IMG/VR virus record: IMGVR_UViG_3300037483_000348
Span: 1,943-65,942 of that record
Reading direction: 5' to 3' (one strand)
Length of the DNA stretch: 64,000 bases
Origin: a virus
Lineage: Duplodnaviria; Caudoviricetes
Part shown: positions 19,001 through 38,174 of the stretch, one piece after another
How the letters are laid out: each line of letters starts with the position of its first letter
Position numbering within the stretch: position 1 is the stretch's first letter
Translations under genes and position numbers: made by a program
The notes under the pieces: generated by a model
Database searches by the model: none
The model's input: the letters and a program-made list of their open reading frames with translations, nothing else
Told to the model about the DNA's origin: nothing

Positions 19001-20506
19001 ATGTTCGGTCGCCGCCCCTTCGGACGCCTGCCCTTTGGCGGACGGTTCGTTCAGGCGAGCACAACACCCATATTCGAGGATAGCTGGCACCAGCCAGTCT
19101 CGGAACCGACGCGCTTTGCACTTGCGCCGGCCGCCGCGGCTTGCCTCATCAGCCTGCATTCCTTTGCGATCGACCCGAGCATTCTCACGCAGCCCGAGGC
19201 GGTCAGTCCCGACCGCTTCCATCGCGAATTGTCGGAGCCGGTCAGGTTCCGCCCCGCTCTACAGTCCGCCGATCAGCAGTTCTCGGCGTTTGTGCAGGCC
19301 GCTCCATTCGAGGAAGCGCCGCATCTTGAGGCGCATGTCCAGCCGCAGGCCGAACCCGTTCGTTTCGCACCGGCCCTGGCCACGGCGCTTCAGCAATATC
19401 AGGCTTTCGTTCAGTTCGCGCCGTTCGGCGAGGTCATCGATCTTCAGAAATGGCACCAGCCATTCTCGGAGCCGGTTCGTTACGCCCCGGCCCTGCCTGC
19501 CTACGACCAGCAGTATGAAGCCTTTGTTCAGTTCGGTCCGTTCGATCAGACACCGCTTCCCGGCTGGGTGCAGCCGCAGTCCGAGCCTATTCGTTTTCGT
19601 GCCAGTCTGCCGGCATACGATCAGCAGTTCCTTGCATTCCAGAGCTTTGCCCCGTTCGCAGAAGTTCCGGCGCCCGACAAGTTCCATCGTGATCTATCCG
19701 AGCCAACCAGGTTCGCACCGCTTCTGGCGACCGGATCGCAGCAATTCGCGGCATTTGTCGATTCCGAACCGTTCCCCGAGCGGGTTACGGCCGATCGATG
19801 GGTTCCGCCGCTCAATGAACCGGTCAGATTCCTTCCGTCGCTCGATACGGCGCATCAGCAGGCTCTTGCCTATCAGGGCTTCGAGCCGTTCGAGGAAAAG
19901 TCGCATCCCGACGCTTGGCATCCGCTGCTTAGCGAGCCGGTTCGTTTCGCGCTCTCGCTCCCGGTTCATGGCCAGCAGTTCGACGCCTTTGTTCAGTTTG
20001 CGCCGTTCGCGGAAAGTGTCAGCGCCGACCGGTGGGTTCCTCCGCTTGCCGAGCCGGTCCGCTTCGCGCTTTCCATGCCGGTCCACGGTCAGCAATTCGC
20101 GGCCTTTGTCGGCTTTGCGCCGTTTGCGGAGATCGTCTCGGCCGATCGATGGGTTCCGCCTCTATCGGAACCGACTCGTTTTGCGCCGTCACTGCCGGCA
20201 TACGAGCAGCAATTTCTCGCGTTTCAGGGGTTTTCGCCCTTCCCGGAACCGCCGCATGTCGATGCGTTCATGCAGCCGTTCAGCGATCCGGTCAGGTTCC
20301 GCGCTTCGCTGGAAGCGCGGCTTCAGCAGTTCCTCGCATGGTCCGAGTGGCCCGTTGTTCTCGTTTCGAACGACATGGAGGTCACCATCGAGATCATCCC
20401 CGAAATGACCGGAGCGAACGCCTTGCAGACCACGCTCGACAGTGGAGAGGGGGAGATCACATACGCAGCCGTGATCCGCCCGTGGTTCCTGTCGGACAGG
20501 GCCTAG
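19001..20506 (+). CDS. Tail-module protein built of 39-aa tandem repeats
   Basis: 11 (E/D)PxR(F/Y) motifs; typical codon usage; coupled to next gene. Confidence 0.75.
   Translation: MFGRRPFGRLPFGGRFVQASTTPIFEDSWHQPVSEPTRFALAPAAAACLISLHSFAIDPSILTQPEAVSPDRFHRELSEPVRFRPALQSADQQFSAFVQAAPFEEAPHLEAHVQPQAEPVRFAPALATALQQYQAFVQFAPFGEVIDLQKWHQPFSEPVRYAPALPAYDQQYEAFVQFGPFDQTPLPGWVQPQSEPIRFRASLPAYDQQFLAFQSFAPFAEVPAPDKFHRDLSEPTRFAPLLATGSQQFAAFVDSEPFPERVTADRWVPPLNEPVRFLPSLDTAHQQALAYQGFEPFEEKSHPDAWHPLLSEPVRFALSLPVHGQQFDAFVQFAPFAESVSADRWVPPLAEPVRFALSMPVHGQQFAAFVGFAPFAEIVSADRWVPPLSEPTRFAPSLPAYEQQFLAFQGFSPFPEPPHVDAFMQPFSDPVRFRASLEARLQQFLAWSEWPVVLVSNDMEVTIEIIPEMTGANALQTTLDSGEGEITYAAVIRPWFLSDRA
19217..20353 (+). 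repeat. Ten ~117-bp (39-aa) coding tandem repeats
   Basis: Consensus WxxPLSEPVRFxxxLxxxxQQFxAFxxFxPFxExxxxDx. Confidence 0.9.
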
Positions 20507-29422: not shown

Positions 29423-29467
29423 CATCTCCCGAAGGGCTTCTGTTCAATCAACAAGGAATTGGCCGAG

Positions 29468-29836
29468 ATGCGATCTCGACTGCTTTTCGTGCTGTGGCTG
29501 CTACTCGGCCTCGGCCTGGGTGCGCTCTGTGGCGTTGCGCTGATGGTGCAGCCGGTCAGGGCTCATGATGCAATTCCGACCGCCGCTAAGCCGAACGGCT
29601 GGTCATATCCGCTGGCGTGCTGCTCGGGCTATGATTGCCGGGAAGTGACTGGCGGGCCGGGCGGGCTGGTCCGCGAGCACGGCAACGGCTACGAGATCGC
29701 CACCACGGGCGAGGTCATTCCGCAGACCGACGCCAAGATCAAACTTTCACCGGACGGGCAGTTCCACTGGTGCTCCAAAGGCGGGCGCGACGATAGCGAC
29801 ACGATCTGCCTGTTCGTGCCGCCCCCCATGTTCTGA
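29468..29836 (+). CDS. Secreted Cys-rich small protein
   Basis: Signal peptide, HDA...WSYPLACCSGYDC...ICLFVPP pattern. Confidence 0.65.
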   Translation: MRSRLLFVLWLLLGLGLGALCGVALMVQPVRAHDAIPTAAKPNGWSYPLACCSGYDCREVTGGPGGLVREHGNGYEIATTGEVIPQTDAKIKLSPDGQFHWCSKGGRDDSDTICLFVPPPMF

Positions 29837-29903: not shown

Positions 29904-29977
29904 TGGTTCCCGCTCGTGGATTCGAACCACGATCTGCGCCTTCAAAGGGCGTTATCCGACCGTTAGACGAAGCGGGA
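29904..29977 (-). tRNA. tRNA-Gln(TTG)
   Basis: Cloverleaf, loop CT-TTG-AA, encoded CCA, 74 nt. Confidence 0.88.
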
Positions 29978-29981
29978 AGAT

Positions 29982-30058
29982 TGGTGCCGCCCGCAGGACT
30001 CGAACCTGCACTTGAGCATGTTTTGAACATGCGGCCACTGCCGTTGGGCTAGAGCGGC
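29982..30058 (-). tRNA. tRNA-Leu(CAA), short variable region
   Basis: GCATG-TTCAAAA-CATGC arm, 6-nt variable region, A73, CCA. Confidence 0.85.
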
Positions 30059-30135
30059 TGGTACCCGTGGAGAGATTCGAACTCCCATCGCCTAGTTCCT
30101 AAGACTAGCGCCTCTACCAGTTGGGCTACACGGGC
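30059..30135 (-). tRNA. tRNA-Leu(TAG), short variable region
   Basis: CTAGT-CTTAGGA-ACTAG arm, 5-nt variable region, A73, CCA. Confidence 0.87.
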
Positions 30136-30147
30136 ACGGAAGGAAGG

Positions 30148-30224
30148 TGGAGCTGACGGGGCGGACTCGAACCCCCAACCTGCCGCTTACAAGGCGGCTG
30201 CTCTACCGATTGAGCTACGCCAGC
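30148..30224 (-). tRNA. tRNA-Thr(TGT) with bulged T-stem
   Basis: GCCGC-CTTGTAA-GCGGC arm, CCA; T-stem 3' strand CCGCCC has an extra G. Confidence 0.82.
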
Positions 30225-30265
30225 GAATTGCTAGCGTGTCGTTCGCAAGAGTCGTTGTAAGGGAA

Positions 30266-30344
30266 TGGTCAGGGCGGCTGGATTCGAACCAGCGATCTCC
30301 GCGTTCCAAGCGCGGCAGGGACGGCCAAGCTCCCCCACGCCCTG
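30266..30344 (-). tRNA. tRNA-Pro(TGG)
   Basis: CCGCG-CTTGGAA-CGCGG arm, C1-G72, A73, CCA. Confidence 0.9.
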
Positions 30345-30648
30345 AATAGGGCTAGGTCGCGGTCGGTCGATATGCGCTTCGCGGTTCATGGGCGCGCTTC
30401 TAACGCAGGAGGCAGATGTTCGCAAGAGAGCGGCTTTTTTGCGTTTCGGGCAATGAAAAGGCGGCCGACCGACATTCTACCCAACGCCGATGGCCGCCTC
30501 TCTGGTGATCCCTACGGGACATGGCTTTTCTACGCCAGAAGCGATTGCATGTGAAGCCGTGAGCGAGCGGATGCTGTGCATAGACGGCGGCTCGGCTCAG
30601 GAGCCGGGTCAGGACGCGCGTTCTTGCCTTCCGGGGCTAATTATATAC

Positions 30649-30676
30649 TTGACACCACAAACGCAGGATGTAGTAT
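30649..30676 (+). promoter_or_regulatory. Transposase promoter within left IR
   Basis: TTGACA-N16-TAGTAT. Confidence 0.6.
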
Positions 30677-30700
30677 GGGTTGCAGAAGGGAACTGCAGCC

Positions 30701-31645
30701 ATGTTTTCAGCACCGCACTTTCACAATGACGACGCCGCCCGTAAGACGCTGGAGGAAATCCGCTGGCCGAATGGGCGCAATTGCCCGCACTGCGGAACGG
30801 TTGATCGGTCCTATCAGACTAAGCGCGCGCAGAAGTCAGGCGCGGTTGTCTATCGCTGCGGTGAGCCCTCTTGCCGGAAGGATTTCAGCGTCACGACCAA
30901 GAGCGTGATGGAGTCGTCACATATCCCGCTGCACAAGTGGATGCAGGGCTTCTATCTCATGGCGTCGTCAAAGAAGGGCATGTCAGCCCACCAGATGCAC
31001 CGGACACTCGGCATTACCTACAAAGCGGCATGGTTCATGGCGCATCGCATCCGCGAAGCCATGCGCGCCGATGGCACGTTCGGGCCGCTTGGTGGCGAGG
31101 GAAAGACGGTTGAGGCCGACGAGACCTATTACGGCTATCGCGACGATAAGAAGCTCGGCAAGCGCACCATTCGCGGCAAGCGCGGACATGGTGGCCAGCG
31201 CCCGATTATCGCACTGGTCGAGCGTGGCGGTTCTGTGCGGACCTTCTATGCCGCCGTTGCCGACAAGGCGAACGTCACCAAGATCGTGACAGAAAACGTT
31301 GCCCGCGAAAGCTATCTCTACACCGACGAAAGCCGCCTCTATGGCGATGCCGACCAGCTTTTCGCGGAGCATTCAACGGTGAAGCACACCGCCGGCGAAT
31401 ACGCCCGCTATGAAGGCGACCGGGTAATCCACACCAACACGGTCGAGAACGTGTTCAGCGTGTTCAAGCGTGGCATGAAGGGTGTCTATCAGCACTGTGC
31501 AGAGAAGCACCTTCACCGGTATTTGGCGGAGTTTGATTTCCGCTACAATCACCGTTCGGCGCTAGGCGTCGAGGATAAGGCGCGTACCGTTGCCGCCATC
31601 CGCGGCGCGGAAGGCAAGCGCCTCACCTATCACCAAGCTGACTAA
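30701..31645 (+). CDS. IS1595-family transposase
   Basis: N-terminal CPHC zinc ribbon; VEADETY, YTDES, TNTVENVFS catalytic motifs. Confidence 0.95.
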   Translation: MFSAPHFHNDDAARKTLEEIRWPNGRNCPHCGTVDRSYQTKRAQKSGAVVYRCGEPSCRKDFSVTTKSVMESSHIPLHKWMQGFYLMASSKKGMSAHQMHRTLGITYKAAWFMAHRIREAMRADGTFGPLGGEGKTVEADETYYGYRDDKKLGKRTIRGKRGHGGQRPIIALVERGGSVRTFYAAVADKANVTKIVTENVARESYLYTDESRLYGDADQLFAEHSTVKHTAGEYARYEGDRVIHTNTVENVFSVFKRGMKGVYQHCAEKHLHRYLAEFDFRYNHRSALGVEDKARTVAAIRGAEGKRLTYHQAD

Positions 31646-31875
31646 GCCGGTTTTCCACCACCGCGCCGCCCGCTTTTTGCGCTGGCGGAAGAAGCATCCG
31701 AAGAAGTAGCGGCTTTCTTGCCGCGCTTCTTCTGTTGCGCGGGCACGCCTATCGGTGACATGCTCTTGAGCGGCGCGGGAGGAGTGTTCACGGCCGACTT
31801 TAACAGCCTGCGAAAGCGGACTTCGGCTTCGTTGTCGCCGTAGCGGTCTTTGTCTGGAATGTCATTTTGACCCAT
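31642..31875 (-). CDS. Small IS1595-associated hypothetical protein
   Basis: EAEVRFRRLLKSAVNTPP pattern; convergent with transposase. Confidence 0.55.
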   Translation of the reverse strand: MGQNDIPDKDRYGDNEAEVRFRRLLKSAVNTPPAPLKSMSPIGVPAQQKKRGKKAATSSDASSASAKSGRRGGGKPA

Positions 31876-31877
31876 AA

Positions 31878-32765
31878 ATGAAAACCTCGAGAATTCTGAT
31901 TAATCAAAACGGTGTGGATTACCGTTTCCTTCGGTTTGAGCGGTCATCTGACGGCTCAATTATGGTGATAGTCGATCGCGATTCCAGCCCGGGGATAGAC
32001 GTAAGAAGAAGTTTTTCGGACGGGAGATTTCTTCCGACGAGCAACCCTGACGGTAAGCGAGAGCCGCATGCGCGCTGGACGGTTCACACATCGGGAATCG
32101 TAAACTATCGGCAAGCAAGCGAATCTCCAAGGACCCAGAGAATCCAGCCGCTATACGAGCTAACACAGAATTGGCTCATAGGATGGGTTTCGATTCCGGC
32201 AGTTAGCCGCCTGACACCCTTGGACCATTCAAGGACGCACCTTGTTCAGGGGACAATAGATGTTCCTCACAATTTCAACGAGCGCATCACGTTAGGAATT
32301 CTGGTTTGCCCCAGCCCTCCCGTATCGGAGATCAGCGAATATTGGCTCGCACTCAATTTCGAAACCTATTCAATTGTCGTTACGCCGGTGCCACTTCCAT
32401 TCGATATCGGCCCCGATATTTCGGAACACTTCATCTACTGCTCTGTGGCGCCTCAAACCGATAGCTTTCCAGGTGTCGGGGTTGCGGAAGCGGAACTCAA
32501 ATTCTACCAAAAAGTCCACGGTCACGGCGTGAAGGTTTTCCATCAGGAAGACGGTTCCTATGTTGTTCTAGCCCCGCGCGAAATGGTTAAGCCGCCGACA
32601 CTCAAGGTAGGCTTCGACAGGGACGATTTGCGAATCGAACTAATCCACTCGCAGAAATCTCTGCGTCATAAGGTTCGGTTTTGGATTTGTGACAAAGGCG
32701 GTCGAAACAAGACCGACGATCTTCACAAACATATTGTTTCAATGGAGTTCGATAGCAGGCTCTGA
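31878..32765 (+). CDS. IS passenger, unknown 295-aa protein
   Basis: Long low-GC ORF inside IS ends; no motif recognised. Confidence 0.7.
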   Translation: MKTSRILINQNGVDYRFLRFERSSDGSIMVIVDRDSSPGIDVRRSFSDGRFLPTSNPDGKREPHARWTVHTSGIVNYRQASESPRTQRIQPLYELTQNWLIGWVSIPAVSRLTPLDHSRTHLVQGTIDVPHNFNERITLGILVCPSPPVSEISEYWLALNFETYSIVVTPVPLPFDIGPDISEHFIYCSVAPQTDSFPGVGVAEAELKFYQKVHGHGVKVFHQEDGSYVVLAPREMVKPPTLKVGFDRDDLRIELIHSQKSLRHKVRFWICDKGGRNKTDDLHKHIVSMEFDSRL

Positions 32766-32966
32766 CGGGAGTTCGGGAACCGGGCCCCACCAACGCAGGT
32801 CATCGCATGCGTCTCCGTTTTCCTCATCGAAGAAGCCCCGCTCATCGCCCCACACCAATCGCGGATATCCTAGATCATTCAAGCCAACGAAGATGCGGCC
32901 ATCGCGTGGTGCCGTCGCAATAGGGCTCGCAAACTTCTCACAATCTCTGTCGGGCGCGCCAGACAT
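32739..32966 (-). CDS. Small hypothetical protein (DUF551-like)
   Basis: PIATAPRDG motif. Confidence 0.4.
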   Translation of the reverse strand: MSGAPDRDCEKFASPIATAPRDGRIFVGLNDLGYPRLVWGDERGFFDEENGDACDDLRWWGPVPELPSEPAIELH

Positions 32967-33086
32967 GGGGATTCCTCCAGTGTCAGACGCAACACTAGCA
33001 CTTGTGCTTGTGGTGTGAAAGACATAAATAGGCTTCCGGGGTATTGGGAGAGGGCGGAGGTGAGAATCGCGCTCAGCGGGGCTGTA

Positions 33087-33263
33087 TCAGGACGAGATGT
33101 TGTAGAATGAACGGATGCCAAGGCCACTGTATGGAAATGGCGTGGCGGTGTCGTTCCGCAGTTGGCGATCGTAGCTAGATTCCAATGCCACTTCGCCGAA
33201 GGCCTTCTTTTCCATGAGCGCGAGATGCAGCTTCATGATCTCCTGCATCTTCGCCCACAATTC
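33087..33263 (-). pseudogene. 3' part of a 79-aa phage gene split by IS element 2
   Basis: Joins in frame with 37482-37552 once the IS and one TSD are removed. Confidence 0.75.
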
Positions 33264-33335
33264 CGGTATTAGGTAGCAGTCTCACCTACAAGGTAATAGT
33301 GTCCCCCTTACGCTTGAGGCGTGAGGGGAAAGATA

Positions 33336-34190
33336 ATGCCGCTAGCTGCGCATTATTTAGCACTAAAGCAGATAGCATCGGCCGATCTAACAGACGCGCT
33401 GGTTCGACCCGCACTTGAATCGGTAATTGTCGAGTCACTCGATGTCATCAACGGAGCGCAGGCTATTGATCTCGTTTCGAAGGTGGCGGGCAAATCGTAC
33501 GAGATGCGCCACTTCGGGAACAGGTTCTCTCGCCCGATCAACAAGGCGCTGTTTTGGCCGAATGTCGACCGACAAGCAATGTTGACGGCTTTGTTTGACG
33601 CTCCAGAGGCCGCTGATCCGGCAACATTGGACCGATATCTCTACACAGCAGCTATGTCGTACCCTGCGGCAAACGATCTAGAAAAATCCGACGACAAGAA
33701 AACACCTGGGACATTCTTTGAGATTCTCATCGGGTTCCTTTTTGCGGCCCGCTACGGCGTGAATCCTAGAAAGAGCATCACGGTCCCGACACTGGAGATC
33801 GAAAACAAAATTCCGACCGACTACATTTTCGAGCTTTCGGGCAATCGGCGGATACATCTACCGGTTAAGCTTTCGACGCGCGAGCGGGTCGTCCAAGTGT
33901 GGGCGCACCAGCGGGTGCTGGACGGTATGCACGGCGTAGGCCGATTCCGGGGAATTCTGGTTTGTCTTACTGAGACGAACAAGCAACAGAACACGTCAGT
34001 GGTCGAGGTATGCCTGCCCGGCCAATGGGCCGCATACCAGATGTACATTGCTCAGCTCGATAGGGTCTATTACCTAGACCCACCTAACAAATATCTCGCA
34101 CTCCGAGACACGTGGCCGCATATCCAAGTGTGGCCGCTATCTCGTTTCTTTCAGGAAGCGGATGCCGTAACGCAGCCGGTCAACGCCTGA
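33336..34190 (+). CDS. Putative type II restriction endonuclease, PD-(D/E)xK fold
   Basis: PGTFFE...PTD...PVKLSTRER matches the E...PD...KxSxRER layout of EcoRII/Cfr10I-type enzymes; next to MTase. Confidence 0.65.
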
Positions 34191-34911
34191 GCCCCTTCCA
34201 CCTCTGGCTAGGCTTGGCCTTCCAAAAGACCAGAAAATACGAATGGTTCTTCCGCGCATGCGCTTGAGTGATTAGTCGGCTGACACCCGGCTTGTTGCGG
34301 CGCATCACCACAAACAGATCTTCGGTTACGAAGCCCTTGGATTCGTATTCGTTGATGATTTCCACATGGGTAAGCCGTTGACGATTGGCGCAAACCTCAT
34401 CCTGGCACTTCACGATAAAGAAGCCGTTCCTGCGGAGGACTCTCATCGCCTCGTCTGCCGTCTGGAAATAGAGGTCTAGGACGGCTTCGTGATACTTCTT
34501 TGTCGGATGGCTAGCCCCGTTGTTCCGATAATACCCCTCGTAATTCTGGTGGCCAACGTGGGCGCTCCCGCCCGGCGTGTGCATGTAGGGCGGATCGAAA
34601 ACGATACAATCTATCGACTCATCTTCGTAGGGCAGTTGTCGGCAGTCGACACCATCTGTCAGGTCGGTCGCAAGCAGCTGATAGGCGCTTGGGTCGACGT
34701 TCTTCCAGAAGACGCCCTTGCCATAAGTAATATCAGCGATAGTGCTCCCCCGTGGCACGTAAAGCGATAGGATATTCGGAAGCACAAGGTCATTGGTCTC
34801 CTGATAAGCGCTGAAAACCAGATCGTTGGTCGCTTCGCCTTGTGGCGACTTGCGGCCTGGCTTTCTTTCAACCTCAGGCGTGATGGCGGAATAATGTTCT
34901 ACAAATGACAC
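34180..34911 (-). CDS. Amino-DNA methyltransferase (m6A or m4C)
   Basis: [11 protein letters not shown] (motif I-like) then VFDPPY (motif IV); GTG at 34911 abuts upstream stop (alternative start 34947). Confidence 0.85.
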
Positions 34912-34912
34912 T

Positions 34913-35146
34913 TTAATCGTCCTCCAAATGGATTGCTTTTGCTCCAATCGCCTTCAGGCATTGGACGAGAAAGACGGCTGAGAACGCACCTCTCCCAATT
35001 TTGTTGGAGATGTTCCGGCGGTCTTCATGAATGCCCATATCTCCCAATTTGTCGGCCAGGTCGGCGTAGCTAAGATTCCGCCGACTTAGCTCGCTCTTAA
35101 GGAGTCCCTTAACCTCAGATTGCCAGTCGCGCGACGTTCGCGTCAT
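34913..35146 (-). CDS. DUF6471-like HTH regulator
   Basis: [19 protein letters not shown]...[20 protein letters not shown]. Confidence 0.8.
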
Positions 35147-35197
35147 AGGGAGTCATCCGATTCAATGTCAGAGTCATCATAAACGATGTTTTTCTCA

Positions 35198-35242
35198 TTG
35201 ACAACAAGATTGGAAACACCATATATGATGTCATCGACATCA
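35198..35242 (+). promoter_or_regulatory. Transposase promoter with palindromic operator TGATGTC-ATC-GACATCA
   Basis: TTGACA at 35198; ATATATGAT 17 nt later; palindrome 35226-35242. Confidence 0.55.
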
Positions 35243-35256
35243 AAAACGGTGTTTCT

Positions 35257-36225
35257 GTGGCTCAACATTTCCTCCTCTCCGCTGCTGCCCGGTCGCTTTC
35301 GCTGACCGCCGTTGCGCGCATGTCAGAAGAGGAGGCGCGCGATACCTTTCGCCGCATTCGTTGGGCCGACAACGATGGCGAACCCTACTGCCCTCGTTGC
35401 GGTTGCGTGACCGTATCTGCGCTGGCAACGCGCCCCGTTTGGAAATGCAGCGGATGCAAGTACCAGTTTAGCGTCACCGCCGGCACGATCTTTGACAATC
35501 GCAAACGCCCCGTCCGCGATTACCTCTTGGCGATCGCGATCTTTGTGAACGGTGCCAAGGGGTACAGCGCCCTTCAATTGTCCCGTGATCTCGACTGCCA
35601 GTACAAGACAGCATTTGTGCTGGTCCACAAACTTCGCGAAGCCATCACAGCAGAGCAGCGGGACGTGAAACTGTCCGGCACCGTGGAAATCGACGGCGCG
35701 TACTTTGCGGGCTATCGCAAGCCCGAAAACAAGGCTTCCGAGCGGGTCGACCGGCGGCTAGCGGAAGAACGTACAGGCAAGCGCCGTGTCGTGATTGTGT
35801 TGCGTGAGCGCGGAGGGCGCACTCTTCCCTTTGTCACCCGCAAGGAAAGCGAAGGCACTGCGATCGCGCGCCAGCGGGTTGCGATGGGCAGCACGATCCA
35901 TGCCGATGAGGCTACAGCTTGGGACACCCTGTACGCGCACTACGAAATGAAGCGCGTTAATCACTCTGTCGAGTACAAATCGGATGACGGCGCGTGTACC
36001 AACCAAGCGGAATCATTTTTTGCCCGCCTACGCCGTTGTGAGATCGGCATTCACCACCGCATCGGATCGCGATTGCTTCGCAGCTACGCCTCGGAAATGG
36101 CGTGGCGCGAGGATCGGCGCCGGGTCAGCAACGGCGGTCAGTTCCGCGAACTGACAAGCCTCGCGCTAGCGCATCCGGTCAGCCGCGAGTGGTGCGGGTA
36201 CTGGCAGCGCAATAAGGCAGCATAG
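35257..36225 (+). CDS. IS1595-family transposase
   Basis: CPRCGC...CSGC zinc ribbon; VEIDGAYF, IHADEA, TNQAESFF motifs. Confidence 0.95.
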   Translation: MAQHFLLSAAARSLSLTAVARMSEEEARDTFRRIRWADNDGEPYCPRCGCVTVSALATRPVWKCSGCKYQFSVTAGTIFDNRKRPVRDYLLAIAIFVNGAKGYSALQLSRDLDCQYKTAFVLVHKLREAITAEQRDVKLSGTVEIDGAYFAGYRKPENKASERVDRRLAEERTGKRRVVIVLRERGGRTLPFVTRKESEGTAIARQRVAMGSTIHADEATAWDTLYAHYEMKRVNHSVEYKSDDGACTNQAESFFARLRRCEIGIHHRIGSRLLRSYASEMAWREDRRRVSNGGQFRELTSLALAHPVSREWCGYWQRNKAA

Positions 36226-36236
36226 GAGATCATTGC

Positions 36237-36671
36237 ATGGGCGAATCGCACGTTATGACCGGCCTTGTGGCCAAGCGCGCCGAATTGGCCGGGAAACTGG
36301 AGCACCATCAATCGATGGTTCGGCAGCTCATTATGGAAATCGATGCCCTCGATCAGACGTTACGGCTTTTCAATCCAGACATCGAACTTGATGAGATCAA
36401 GCCAAAGCCGCTGCCGCCTCGCCACGCCGCCTACAAAGGCGAAGTCGCTCGCATCGTTCTGTCGACGCTGCGCAACGCTAGTAGGCCATGCAGCACTCAC
36501 GAACTTACCATGCACGTCATGGCGGAACGCGGCATGAATACCGCAGACAAGCGGCTTGTCAAAACCGTCGGAAAGCGGGTTGGCGCTTGCCTGCGACACC
36601 ATCGGTCGAAGGGATTGTTACGGTCCAACCAGGGTCTCGGGAAACTTATCTATTGGGAGGTCGCGCGCTAG
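36237..36671 (+). CDS. IS passenger: coiled coil plus winged-helix-like domain
   Basis: GLVAKRAELAG...LDQTLRLFNPD pattern. Confidence 0.7.
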   Translation: MGESHVMTGLVAKRAELAGKLEHHQSMVRQLIMEIDALDQTLRLFNPDIELDEIKPKPLPPRHAAYKGEVARIVLSTLRNASRPCSTHELTMHVMAERGMNTADKRLVKTVGKRVGACLRHHRSKGLLRSNQGLGKLIYWEVAR

Positions 36672-36910
36672 TCCCGGTCAAAATCGCGACTGTGGTAGCC
36701 CTCCCTAAACATAGCGTCCAGTTCGCGGATTAGAATGTAGCGCGCCGCGTCGTTCGGGGAGTTGCCGAGCCGCTTTTTGTCAACAACGAGATGCTTCAAG
36801 TACGCGAAGTGGTCAGTAGGAAGCTTAAACGACACCGACTCCGCATCGCTTCGGCCGGGTGGTCGACCCCTCTTCCGTTTGCCAGGCGCTACCCGATCTG
36901 CCATACGCAC
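36668..36910 (-). CDS. Small AT-hook / ribbon-helix-helix-like protein
   Basis: KRGRPPGRS then VSFKLP...NDAARYILIREL. Confidence 0.55.
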   Translation of the reverse strand: MRMADRVAPGKRKRGRPPGRSDAESVSFKLPTDHFAYLKHLVVDKKRLGNSPNDAARYILIRELDAMFREGYHSRDFDRD

Positions 36911-37048
36911 ACTGATTTTCTTGCATTAAAAAACTGATTTATTATTCCTCTTAATTGTTGCTCTGGCGAGTCCTGATGCGCTATTTTCTTAGAGCGGTGA
37001 TTCGAATTCGTGGACTCTCTCGAAGTTTAATGTGCAGGATAGCGCCGC

Positions 37049-37079
37049 AAAGGAAACGGGCGGCCCAAAAGACCGCCCG
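37049..37079 (-). terminator. Terminator of micropeptide unit
   Basis: CGGGCGGTC-TTTTG-GGCCGCCCG then TTTCCTTT on minus strand. Confidence 0.7.
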
Positions 37080-37099
37080 CCCCAGCCTCTAGACAGGCA

Positions 37100-37243
37100 T
37101 TAGCCGGTCGTCACGGTCGTCACGGTCGGACGTGGCGGCCGGCGGAAGTGCGAGACGATGGTTTCCCACTTCCCATGCCTTAATCGGAGATACGTCCGCA
37201 CGTAGACGGTCTTTTCCCCGATCAGTTCAGCAACGTGACGCAT
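37100..37243 (-). CDS. 47-aa Arg-rich micropeptide
   Basis: GGAG RBS; VYVRTYLRLRHGKWETIVSHFRRPP; own promoter and terminator. Confidence 0.55.
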   Translation of the reverse strand: MRHVAELIGEKTVYVRTYLRLRHGKWETIVSHFRRPPRPTVTTVTTG

Positions 37244-37266
37244 AATGCGTTCTCCGTACTGAGAGC

Positions 37267-37329
37267 GGCAGCCTGGGGCATGCCTCCCCTCGGGGCACCC
37301 CATGTGCCCCGCCTGGCATCAGGGCTACC
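37267..37329 (-). ncRNA. Long structured 5' leader hairpin
   Basis: Nested stems GGTAGCC/GGCTGCC, ATGCC/GGCAT, CGGGGCAC/GTGCCCCG. Confidence 0.45.
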
Positions 37330-37481
37330 GGTGGGGTGTCTGGGAGGTCTCAGATGGAGCACGAATCAACGCGCTGTTGCTGTACGATAATTGCACCCTC
37401 CGCGTGTAAAGGGTCAAGTCGCTAAAGGTTAAATCCCAAGGGCTATCAAGACTCTATAGGTGAGACTGCTACCTAATACCG

Positions 37482-37552
37482 CACAATTCCGGCGAAGGGT
37501 CGCCGATATCGACAATCCTGACATCGGTCTGCGTGATTTGCACTTCGTGCAT
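37482..37552 (-). pseudogene. 5' part of the IS-split phage gene
   Basis: ATG at 37552 with RBS, MHEVQITQTDVRIVDIGDPSPEL ending in the TSD. Confidence 0.75.
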
Positions 37553-37555
37553 TTC

Positions 37556-37738
37556 CTATCTCCGCTCTACAGGGTCAGGTGGTTTGGCTTCGGAGAGGAT
37601 GGCGTCAGCCGCGTCGTAGCAGCCATCGCGTTCAGCGTTGGCGAGGGCAGTGGCGATGATGTTGGCCCGTGCCCTGTAGTCTTCCTCACATTCGTCCAAC
37701 AGCTTCCACGCCGCTTCCATGTGCTTATCGCTCGCCAT
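37556..37738 (-). CDS. Hypothetical protein, paralogue A (MASDKHMEAA)
   Basis: Shares termini with 38274-38513. Confidence 0.6.
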   Translation of the reverse strand: MASDKHMEAAWKLLDECEEDYRARANIIATALANAERDGCYDAADAILSEAKPPDPVERR

Positions 37739-37752
37739 CGCCTAGCCTCCCT
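37713..37752. repeat. 40-bp direct repeat copy 1 (copy 2 at 38488-38527)
   Basis: GCTTCCATGTGCTTATCGCTCGCCATCGCCTAGCCTCCCT identical at both sites. Confidence 0.92.
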
Positions 37753-37864
37753 CTACGGGAGGGGCGGGCGGCAGACGCCAGTGCGTCGGCTCGATAATCA
37801 TTGCCATGCCGGGAAGGCCGCCCGTGTGGGCGCGGAAGGATGATTCGAGCACGGCGTCATCCAT
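37742..37864 (-). CDS. 40-aa DUF551-like C-terminal remnant
   Basis: EPTHWRLPPAPP motif. Confidence 0.45.
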   Translation of the reverse strand: MDDAVLESSFRAHTGGLPGMAMIIEPTHWRLPPAPPVEGG

Positions 37865-38174
37865 GATACCTTGCCTCCATCGTGATCTCGACATCGTTGA
37901 AAACGAAGTGAACCGTCATGCCGGTGTGGCAGTGGATTTCCCATGCGACCTTGCAAGCGGCGCTGATGTCAGTGCCGGCCAGAAACTCGGGCTCCCAGCG
38001 CTCGCCATCGCGATCGAGTTTGCTGCATCCGTCGACGATCACCCCGACCCGTTCGAACTGCCACTTCATATGCATGTGGCTGTCACTTTGCTTCACGAAC
38101 GGCATCATCGCGTCGTTGATCGCGCGCTTGCGTGCTTCCCACTCGTCGCGGATCGAAGCGACTGACGTGTTCAT
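37857..38174 (-). CDS. Hypothetical protein
   Basis: GGAGG RBS; operon context. Confidence 0.55.
   Translation of the reverse strand: MNTSVASIRDEWEARKRAINDAMMPFVKQSDSHMHMKWQFERVGVIVDGCSKLDRDGERWEPEFLAGTDISAACKVAWEIHCHTGMTVHFVFNDVEITMEARYHG

What the first reader, a model, noticed from the sequence alone, without database searches (positions are those of the whole stretch)
29982..30135. Two Leu-anticodon tRNAs without the long variable arm, fused with zero spacer
Seen: variable regions are only 6 nt (TCAAGT) and 5 nt (GCGAT); both have A73 and similar D-arms (TAGCCCAAC...GGC); the CCA of Leu(TAG) at 30059 is directly followed by G1 of Leu(CAA) at 30058. Known: bacterial tRNA-Leu are class II with a long variable arm, and LeuRS relies on A73 and tertiary structure rather than the anticodon. 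Inference: either streamlined class-I tRNA-Leu evading host nucleases, or tRNAs charged with another amino acid that recode or mistranslate CUA/UUG.
Basis: partly seen in the sequence, partly recalled or inferred. Interest (0 to 1): 0.7.

Follow-up and report, generated by a model that had tools for sequence, protein, structure and literature searches.

The report
Short-armed leucine tRNA pair in phage
This phage carries two real leucine tRNA genes that lack the long extra arm, but such tRNAs are common in phages and in Actinomycetota and keep the other leucine identity marks, so they are most likely ordinary leucine tRNAs for rare codons.

Summary
ARAGORN and Rfam both call tRNA-Leu(UAG) at 30059-30135 and tRNA-Leu(CAA) at 29982-30058 on the minus strand. 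Variable loops are 5 nt and 6 nt, both have A73, and there is no spacer between them.

They sit in a five-tRNA cluster (Pro-Thr-Leu-Leu-Gln) of a 66-kb siphovirus-like phage. Its nearest named relative is Azospirillum phage Cd.

They are not unusual:
- Leu(UAG) has full-length look-alikes in over 200 GenBank phage records.
- In IMG/VR contigs chosen without regard to Leu, 16 of 46 Leu tRNAs were short-armed.
- The same D-arm occurs as a chromosomal tRNA-Leu in about 14% of sampled Actinomycetota genomes, but in about 1% of genomes from the likely host class.

Both genes keep the E. coli-type LeuRS identity set: U8, A14, A15-U48, G18G19, A20a and A73. This body type was found only with Leu anticodons, and its stems covary strongly. 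At CUA and UUG codons, homologous proteins have leucine as often as at other Leu codons.

Zero-spacer junctions make up about 5% of adjacent phage tRNA pairs.

Best reading: ordinary rare-codon leucine tRNAs. Recoding is unsupported and nuclease evasion is untested. This scan has reported the same family at least seven times on other DNA.

The parts
30059..30135 (-). tRNA-Leu(UAG), type I: 5-nt variable loop GCGAU, G1.U72, A73, G37, encoded CCA
   Evidence: ARAGORN. Rfam 56.6 bits. Type I Leu HMM 54.6 bits against 31.0 for the next isotype, with the anticodon masked. 39 of its 40 nearest tRNAs are short Leu.
29982..30058 (-). tRNA-Leu(CAA), type I, diverged member: 6-nt variable loop UCAAGU, 10-nt D-loop, G1-C72, A73, A36A37A38, encoded CCA. 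Starts directly after A76 of the upstream tRNA.
   Evidence: ARAGORN. Rfam 43.5 bits. Type I Leu HMM 29.4 bits against 25.2 for Asn, a weak margin. 38 of its 40 nearest tRNAs are short Leu. No blastn match in GenBank phages.
30266..30344 (-). tRNA-Pro(UGG), first gene of the cluster
   Evidence: ARAGORN; Rfam 53.5 bits
30148..30224 (-). tRNA-Thr(UGU), 12 nt upstream of Leu(UAG)
   Evidence: ARAGORN; Rfam 60.7 bits
29904..29977 (-). tRNA-Gln(UUG), last gene of the cluster, 4 nt after Leu(CAA)
   Evidence: ARAGORN; Rfam 53.9 bits
29861..29886 (.). G+C-rich hairpin (11 bp) between the tRNA cluster and the convergent ORF 29459-29836. It has a T-run on the + strand and an A-run on the cluster side. 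It is a terminator for the + strand gene and possibly marks the 3' boundary of the tRNA transcript.
   Evidence: Terminator scan; sequence read

Best explanation
The two genes are working leucine tRNAs of the type I (short variable loop) tRNALeu family. They are carried in a five-gene phage tRNA cluster that supplies decoders for codons rare in a G+C-rich genome: CCA, ACA, CUA (and probably other CUN codons), UUG and CAA. The long arm is missing, but the elements bacterial LeuRS is known to use are all present: A73, the U8-A14 pair, the A15-U48 Levitt pair, the G18G19 placement, A20a, and the D-loop/T-loop contacts. The host LeuRS is therefore expected to leucylate them, which is inference. 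The cluster is probably transcribed as one precursor. RNase P cutting 5' of G1 of Leu(CAA) would at the same stroke release Leu(UAG) with its finished CCA end, so no 3' trimming or CCA addition is needed at that junction. This processing step is also inferred.
For: Shown here:
- Both genes are called by two independent tRNA finders.
- Both carry every E. coli-type identity element. Across 333 family members the frequencies are U8 96%, A14 96%, A15 99%, GG-N-A 99%, U48 97% and A73 96%.
- The 3-bp D-stem with a 10-11-nt D-loop is the same architecture as in type II tRNALeu from the same contigs.
- The cloverleaf is 98.3% paired over 72 diverse members. All 20 pairs show changes on both sides. 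The covariation score is 0.976 against 0.13-0.17 for slid controls.
- In an IMG/VR scan on the D-arm motif alone, all 131 hits lying in complete tRNAs had Leu anticodons and short loops; none had another anticodon.
- With the anticodon masked and the variable loop removed, both window tRNAs score best on the type I Leu model, and their nearest neighbours are type I Leu.
- Position 37 fits the normal Leu isoacceptor pattern: G36G37 for UAG and A36A37A38 for CAA.
- The five anticodons match minor codons of the phage: CUA 2.9% and UUG 10.8% of Leu, CCA 9.4%, ACA 9.6%, CAA 19.7%.
- Homologous proteins have Leu at 5 of 6 aligned CUA cells and at 66.7% of 39 UUG cells, against 54.5% for CUG and 51.4% for CUC.

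From the literature:
- The type I tRNALeu(CAA) of S. coelicolor is leucylated by its LeuRS, and attempts to delete its gene failed (PMC6614811).
- E. coli LeuRS does not need the long arm in minimalist tRNALeu variants (PMC9976931).
Against: - No charging data exist for any phage type I tRNALeu.
- E. coli LeuRS failed to charge the S. coelicolor type I tRNALeu(CAA) transcript, and some Streptomyces LeuRS need a specific leucine-specific-domain sequence to do so (PMC6614811). Acceptance by a proteobacterial LeuRS therefore cannot be assumed.
- The same D-arm motif was found in only 4 of 401 genomes of the presumed host class, so the host enzyme probably sees only long-armed tRNALeu natively.
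- Leu(CAA) beats the next isotype model by only 4 bits.
- The CUA test rests on 4 sites. Host tRNAs also read these codons, so the alignment test cannot exclude partial mistranslation.
- The host is inferred only from 58% capsid identity to Azospirillum phage Cd.
Confidence: 0.8

Rival explanations
1. Counter-defence. These are still leucine tRNAs, but the short arm is selected in phages because it hides them from host toxins that recognise class II tRNAs by their long variable arm. Examples are MenT3/AbiEii-type nucleotidyltransferases or arm-directed nucleases. The phage can then keep decoding Leu codons when host tRNALeu is disabled.
For: - In the same phage contigs Ser (70 of 72) and Tyr (33 of 35) keep the long arm, while Leu is mostly short.
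- In a sample not selected on Leu, 16 of 46 Leu were short against 1 of 33 Ser.
- Leu is the one class II tRNA whose bacterial synthetase does not need the arm (PMC9976931), so it is the one that could lose it.
- Short arms appear on at least two different D-arm backgrounds in phages, which suggests repeated loss.
Against: - Nothing in this window or genome points to such a toxin or to an arms race.
- The same architecture is an ordinary solitary chromosomal tRNA in many Actinomycetota, so it does not need a defence rationale.
- Its spread among phages could reflect horizontal movement of tRNA cassettes.
- No arm-directed toxin acting on tRNALeu during phage infection has been shown.
Confidence: 0.12
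2. Identity switch or recoding. The short-armed tRNAs are charged with an amino acid other than leucine, or ambiguously, and so alter the meaning of CUA/UUG in phage or host proteins.
For: - Loss of the long arm removes one feature that separates class II from class I tRNAs.
- A73 is shared with several other isotypes.
- Leu(CAA) scores only 4 bits better on the type I Leu model than on Asn.
- Deliberately mistranslating tRNAs exist in bacteria; this rests on my own knowledge of the tRNAProA work in Streptomyces.
Against: - The body type was found only with Leu anticodons (131 of 131).
- All LeuRS identity elements are conserved at 96-99% in the family.
- Homologues have Leu at CUA and UUG sites as often as at other Leu codons.
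- The S. coelicolor member is leucylated (PMC6614811).
Confidence: 0.04
3. Dead cargo. The genes are transcribed and folded but poorly charged, or not charged, by a proteobacterial LeuRS. They persist only because they travel with a mobile tRNA cassette.
For: - E. coli LeuRS did not charge the Streptomyces type I tRNALeu(CAA).
- The motif is rare in the presumed host class (4 of 401).
- The cluster lies next to IS1595-type transposase genes in a lower-G+C accessory stretch.
Against: - Both genes have intact cloverleaves and every conserved tertiary nucleotide.
- The family shows strong compensatory change, which means it is under selection.
- Phages of Escherichia, Salmonella, Erwinia, Vibrio, Bacillus and Microcystis all keep such genes.
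- An unrelated IMG/VR contig (L015) keeps the same five-tRNA set.
Confidence: 0.04

Closest known systems
Type I tRNALeu(CAA) of Streptomyces coelicolor (Fan, Huang, Ji & Wang, NAR 2019, PMC6614811)
   Same: - A bacterial-type tRNA with a Leu anticodon and a 5-nt variable loop.
- U8-A14 is used as an identity element, and it is leucylated by a normal LeuRS.
- The same D-arm motif as in the window occurs in solitary chromosomal tRNA-Leu genes across Actinomycetota.
   Different: - The window genes are phage-borne and sit in a tRNA cluster, in a phage of a probable alphaproteobacterial host.
- One has anticodon UAG and one has a 6-nt loop.
- The paper gives the S. coelicolor variable loop as ending in C48, whereas both window tRNAs and 97% of the family end in U48.
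- Charging of the phage copies is untested, and E. coli LeuRS rejected the Streptomyces tRNA.
Canonical bacterial class II tRNALeu (for example E. coli leuW, leuX, leuZ products)
   Same: - A73, U8-A14, A15-U48, the G18G19 position, A20a, a 3-bp D-stem with an 11-nt D-loop.
- G37 for CUN readers and A37 for UUR readers.
- G1.U72 as in E. coli tRNALeu(UAA); that last point is from my own knowledge.
   Different: No long variable arm: 5-6 nt in place of the 9-25 nt seen in the long-armed phage Leu tRNAs.
Short-armed tRNA-Leu genes already annotated in phages (Felixounavirus wV8, Erwinia phiEa21-4, Vibrio KVP40, Cronobacter CR8, Bacillus P59, Microcystis Mwe-JY26, Streptomyces and Gordonia phages)
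   Same: - The same family: 75-85% identity to Leu(UAG) and the same D-arm.
- Tandem Leu-Leu pairs with 1-3-nt spacers.
- P59 even has the same gene order, Pro-(Tyr)-Thr-Leu(tag)-Leu(taa).
   Different: - Different hosts and phage lineages.
- The window's Leu(CAA) is more diverged, with no blastn hit.
- Its junction has 0 nt rather than 1-3 nt.
Dimeric tRNA precursors of phage T4 and tightly packed phage tRNA arrays
   Same: Adjacent tRNAs with little or no spacer, expected to be separated by RNase P at the 5' end of the downstream tRNA. This is from general knowledge; the spacing statistics are.
   Different: Here the upstream tRNA encodes its own CCA, so the single cut would leave a mature 3' end.

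Membership tests
tRNA (Rfam RF00005) | Covariance-model score above the curated gathering score | tested here: met
   56.6 and 43.5 bits against a gathering score of 29, with full-length model matches. ARAGORN cloverleaves.
Type I (short variable loop) tRNALeu family of phages and Actinomycetota | Leu anticodon (NAG or YAA) with a variable loop of 4-6 nt | tested here: met
   UAG with 5 nt and CAA with 6 nt. In the family, 177 of 194 have 4-5 nt and 11 of 194 have 6 nt.
Type I (short variable loop) tRNALeu family of phages and Actinomycetota | 3-bp D-stem (GCC/GGC) and a 10-11-nt D-loop reading C13 A14 A15 N1-3 G18 G19 N A G N | tested here: met
   Both window tRNAs match the scan pattern used. 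The D-loop is 11 nt in UAG and 10 nt in CAA.
Type I (short variable loop) tRNALeu family of phages and Actinomycetota | A73 discriminator and U at the last variable position (U48) | tested here: met
   Both have both. Family frequencies are 96% and 97%.
Type I (short variable loop) tRNALeu family of phages and Actinomycetota | Overall sequence similarity to family members once the anticodon is ignored | tested here: met
   The type I Leu HMM is the best model for both: 54.6 against 31.0 bits, and 29.4 against 25.2 bits (a weak margin for CAA). 39 of 40 and 38 of 40 nearest neighbours are short Leu.
Type I (short variable loop) tRNALeu family of phages and Actinomycetota | Leucylation by LeuRS | not testable with these tools
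   Shown only for the S. coelicolor tRNALeu(CAA) (PMC6614811). No data exist for phage copies.
Canonical bacterial class II tRNALeu | Long variable arm with a stem | tested here: not met
   The variable loops are 5 and 6 nt and cannot form a stem.
Canonical bacterial class II tRNALeu | E. coli-type LeuRS identity set: A73, A15-U48, G18G19, A20a, U8-A14, U54-A58 | tested here: met
   All are present in both genes. The element list is from PMC9976931.
Identity-switched or mistranslating tRNAs (body of one isotype, anticodon of another) | The body's identity elements belong to a different amino acid than the anticodon | tested here: not met
   The body is Leu-type and the anticodons are Leu. This D-arm body was never found with a non-Leu anticodon (131 of 131).
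Identity-switched or mistranslating tRNAs (body of one isotype, anticodon of another) | The affected codons align with a non-cognate residue in homologues | tested here: not met
   Leu at 5 of 6 CUA cells and at 66.7% of UUG cells, against 51-55% at CUG and CUC. The CUA sample is small.

The most novel reading that the evidence does not exclude
Phages prefer short-armed leucine tRNAs because losing the arm makes them invisible to host abortive-infection or toxin-antitoxin enzymes that pick out class II tRNAs by their long variable arm, while LeuRS still accepts them. LeuRS is the only class II synthetase that ignores the arm. On this reading the window's tandem pair would be a counter-defence module rather than simple codon supply.
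Probability: 0.12. Interest if true: 0.7.

Novelty: new member of a known kind. Interest (0 to 1): 0.3.

Why it matters
For this window the result is routine annotation: two ordinary, if compact, leucine tRNAs.

The wider pattern is worth a specialist's note. A 2023 review still states that tRNALeu carries a long arm everywhere except animal mitochondria (PMC9976931). Yet in the sample here about a third of phage Leu tRNA genes lack the long arm, as does a chromosomal Leu tRNA in a sizeable share of Actinomycetota. My literature searches found no paper describing the phage family.

Whether proteobacterial LeuRS enzymes charge these tRNAs is untested, given that E. coli LeuRS rejected the Streptomyces one. 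It could be tested directly.

Tried and rejected
- **blastn of Leu(CAA) alone against GenBank phages:** no match. Its family membership had to be shown by motif, HMM and nearest-neighbour tests instead.
- **Sequence-only isotype HMMs:** resolution is limited. The window's Thr scored 39.9 bits on the Lys model against 39.1 on Thr, so I did not lean on the 4-bit margin for Leu(CAA).
- **Close relatives of the phage:** none were found. The large ORF at 19001-20506 had no tblastn hit in GenBank phages. The best capsid identities were 58-61%. Conservation of the cluster within one phage lineage therefore could not be followed. The only other contig with the same five tRNAs (L015) shares nothing else with the window in the 4.7 kb held.
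- **The genome search 'relatives':** not available for a virus record.
- **Promoter scan:** it found no sigma-70-type promoter on the cluster's strand.
- **Paper on long tRNA arrays (PMC8421152):** it says nothing about the tRNALeu type.
- **Rejected readings:** a suppressor or shifted-anticodon reading, because both loops are standard 7-nt loops with U33; and the zero spacer as a special fusion, because such junctions are about 5% of phage tRNA junctions.

Full report
**What is there**

The window covers 64 kb of a single 65.9-kb contig with 61% G+C. It encodes an HK97-type major head protein, a tape-measure protein, a tail-fibre protein and an endolysin. The capsid protein is 58% identical to that of Azospirillum phage Cd and 61% identical to two IMG/VR contigs. 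This is therefore a siphovirus-like phage. An alphaproteobacterial host is likely, but that is inference.

ARAGORN finds five tRNA genes, all on the minus strand and all with an encoded CCA:
- Pro(UGG) 30266-30344
- Thr(UGU) 30148-30224
- Leu(UAG) 30059-30135
- Leu(CAA) 29982-30058
- Gln(UUG) 29904-29977

Rfam's tRNA model matches all five full length. The two Leu genes score 56.6 and 43.5 bits against a gathering score of 29.

The variable loops are GCGAU and UCAAGU. Both genes have A73. The D-arms are similar. A76 of Leu(UAG) at 30059 abuts G1 of Leu(CAA) at 30058.

**Are such tRNAs unusual?**

No.
- A blastn search with Leu(UAG) alone finds 225 GenBank phage records, 203 of them covering at least 80% of the gene. 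Nearly all annotated hits are labelled tRNA-Leu. Hosts include Escherichia, Salmonella, Shigella, Erwinia, Cronobacter, Vibrio, Streptomyces and Gordonia.
- In 13 fetched phage regions ARAGORN calls short Leu tRNAs of 74-79 nt with anticodons UAG, CAA, UAA and AAG.
- Bacillus phage P59 has the same gene order as the window: Pro, (Tyr), Thr, Leu(tag), Leu(taa). Both of its Leu genes are 77 nt and are 1 nt apart.
- Over 133 phage loci plus the window there are 194 Leu tRNAs with variable loops of 4-8 nt and 45 with long arms. In the same contigs 70 of 72 Ser and 33 of 35 Tyr tRNAs keep the long arm.
- That sample was selected for short Leu. I therefore drew a second one with a generic class I D-arm motif. 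There, 16 of 46 Leu tRNAs are short, against 1 of 33 Ser.

**Bacterial genomes**

- All 121 motif-bearing tRNAs in the returned loci have Leu anticodons and short loops, and 120 have A73.
- Of the 80 listed records, 66 are Actinomycetota. There the gene is usually a solitary chromosomal tRNA, with anticodon UAA 36 times, CAA 11 times and UAG 11 times.
- Most of the 14 non-actinobacterial records show it inside tRNA arrays of 3-34 genes or next to another tRNA; three have it alone.
- In even samples of genomes, the exact motif occurs in 58 of 401 genomes of the phylum of a Nocardia genome. One of these, G671, is an unpublished genome, so the count is 57 of 400 without it.
- It occurs in only 4 of 401 genomes of the class of a Hyphomicrobiaceae genome.
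- The reversed-pattern control gave no hits in either sample.

The architecture is thus native to Actinomycetota and rare in the presumed host class.

**Is the body a leucine body?**

The review by Giegé and Eriani (PMC9976931) lists the E. coli identity elements for leucine: A73, the A15-U48 pair, G18G19 and A20a in the D-loop, and the D-loop/T-loop contacts. It also states that the long arm is dispensable for E. coli LeuRS.
- Both window tRNAs carry U8, A14, A15, the GG-N-A spacing, U48, A73 and a UUCGA T-loop. Across 333 short Leu tRNAs each element is present in 96-99%.
- The 3-bp D-stem with a 10-11-nt loop is the architecture of long-armed tRNALeu in the same contigs. Most other class I tRNAs have 7-9-nt D-loops.
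- Scanning IMG/VR with the D-arm motif and no constraint on the anticodon gave 150 occurrences. Of these, 131 lie in complete tRNAs, and all 131 have Leu anticodons and short loops. The other 19 are not complete tRNAs.
- I built HMMs per isotype with anticodons masked and variable regions removed. Leu(UAG) scores 54.6 bits on the type I Leu model against 31.0 on the next model. Leu(CAA) scores 29.4 against 25.2, which is a weak margin in a test of limited resolution.
- The 40 nearest tRNAs of each are 39 and 38 short Leu tRNAs.
- On an alignment of 72 members below 80% mutual identity, the cloverleaf is 98.3% paired. All 20 pairs change on both sides. The covariation score is 0.976 against 0.13-0.17 when partners are slid. 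The family is therefore under selection as a tRNA.

**Decoding**

From 64 ORFs chosen by third-position G+C, the five anticodons match minor codons: CUA 35 (2.9% of Leu), UUG 129 (10.8%), CCA 9.4% of Pro, ACA 9.6% of Thr and CAA 19.7% of Gln. This fits the usual picture of phage tRNAs covering codons the host reads poorly.

To test recoding, I aligned these ORFs by tblastn to phage Cd and 14 IMG/VR relatives. I then counted the homologue residue at each Leu codon:
- CUA: Leu in 5 of 6 cells, from 4 sites.
- UUG: Leu in 66.7% of 39 cells, from 22 sites.
- Controls: 54.5% for CUG and 51.4% for CUC.

There is no sign that CUA or UUG means anything but leucine. The CUA sample is small, and host tRNAs also read these codons.

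**The zero spacer**

Among 1037 adjacent same-strand tRNA pairs in the phage loci, 52 have a gap of 0 nt and 120 a gap of 1 nt. Of the zero-gap pairs, 14 have an upstream tRNA with an encoded CCA. There are 27 tandem short Leu-Leu pairs, with spacers of 1-6 nt in 16 of them.

The junction is therefore the tight end of a common arrangement. The expected consequence is that one RNase P cut creates both the 5' end of Leu(CAA) and the mature CCA end of Leu(UAG). This is inferred from what is known of RNase P.

**What is known**

Fan et al. 2019 (PMC6614811) described a type I tRNALeu(CAA) in Streptomyces coelicolor with a 5-nt variable loop.
- Its own LeuRS and the human mitochondrial LeuRS leucylate it. 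E. coli LeuRS does not.
- Attempts to delete the gene failed.
- The paper states that almost all bacterial tRNALeu are type II, and it does not mention phages.

Seven literature searches found no paper describing the phage family.

Earlier reports of this scan reached the same reading on other phages and arrays. I list them, but my conclusions rest on the tests above.

**Open point**

Why phages so often carry the short form is not settled. One possibility is escape from toxins that recognise class II tRNAs. A 2026 preprint suggests the abortive-infection toxin AbiEii prefers tRNAs with long variable arms. Leu is also the only class II tRNA that can lose the arm without losing its bacterial synthetase. 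Nothing in this window bears on that idea. The ordinary chromosomal use of the same design in Actinomycetota shows that it needs no such rationale.

**Verdict**

The genes are new members of a known, widespread kind, most likely ordinary leucine tRNAs. Recoding is not supported and nuclease evasion is untested.

Noticed in passing
window 30680-31645 (+) and 35257-36225 (+); G+C dip across 30000-38000: Two IS1595-family transposase genes, each with the zinc-ribbon and ISXO2-like DDE domains and only 30% identical to each other, flank a lower-G+C stretch (53-59% against about 62%). That stretch also holds a DNA methylase gene at 34180-34947 (-). The tRNA cluster sits at the edge of this accessory stretch.
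   Followed up: partly
window 30452-30498 (minus strand): About 110 nt upstream of tRNA-Pro there is a 7-bp G+C stem (GGCGGCC ... GGCCGCC) with a 25-nt loop, followed by TTTTCATT on the cluster's strand. It could be a terminator or attenuator ahead of the tRNA genes. The scan tool does not list it because the loop exceeds its limit.
   Followed up: no
L015:1329-1957 (IMGVR_UViG_3300037418_001883): An otherwise unrelated 52-kb viral contig carries the same five tRNA species in another order (Leu(caa), Leu(tag), Gln, Pro, Thr), followed by Ala and Gly. Its Leu(caa) also has a 6-nt variable loop. Its Leu(tag) shares the window's anticodon arm and GCGAU loop, with 94.5% identity over 55 nt. This suggests the tRNA set moves as a cassette.
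   Followed up: partly
L300, L360, L382 (IMG/VR loci): There is a second kind of short-armed Leu tRNA with a type II-like D-arm (GACGGAAYNGGTATACGT) and a GUUUU variable loop. Intermediates with 7-8-nt loops occur in the same contigs. This suggests the long arm has been lost more than once in phages.
   Followed up: no
L051:10658, L142:2754, L144:247, L135:4047 and 15 others: Nineteen copies of the type I Leu acceptor and D-arm 5' half run into unrelated sequence instead of a complete tRNA. They could be integration-site remnants, interrupted genes or tRNA-like RNAs.
   Followed up: no
L013:3701-3774 (Streptomyces phage Alone3): A 74-nt gene annotated tRNA-Ser(gct) has no long variable arm and a weak D-stem. 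This is odd because bacterial SerRS relies on the arm.
   Followed up: no
family-wide: The G1.U72 wobble pair is much more frequent in phage copies (88 of 194) than in bacterial chromosomal copies (23 of 121). The window's Leu(UAG) has it and Leu(CAA) does not.
   Followed up: no
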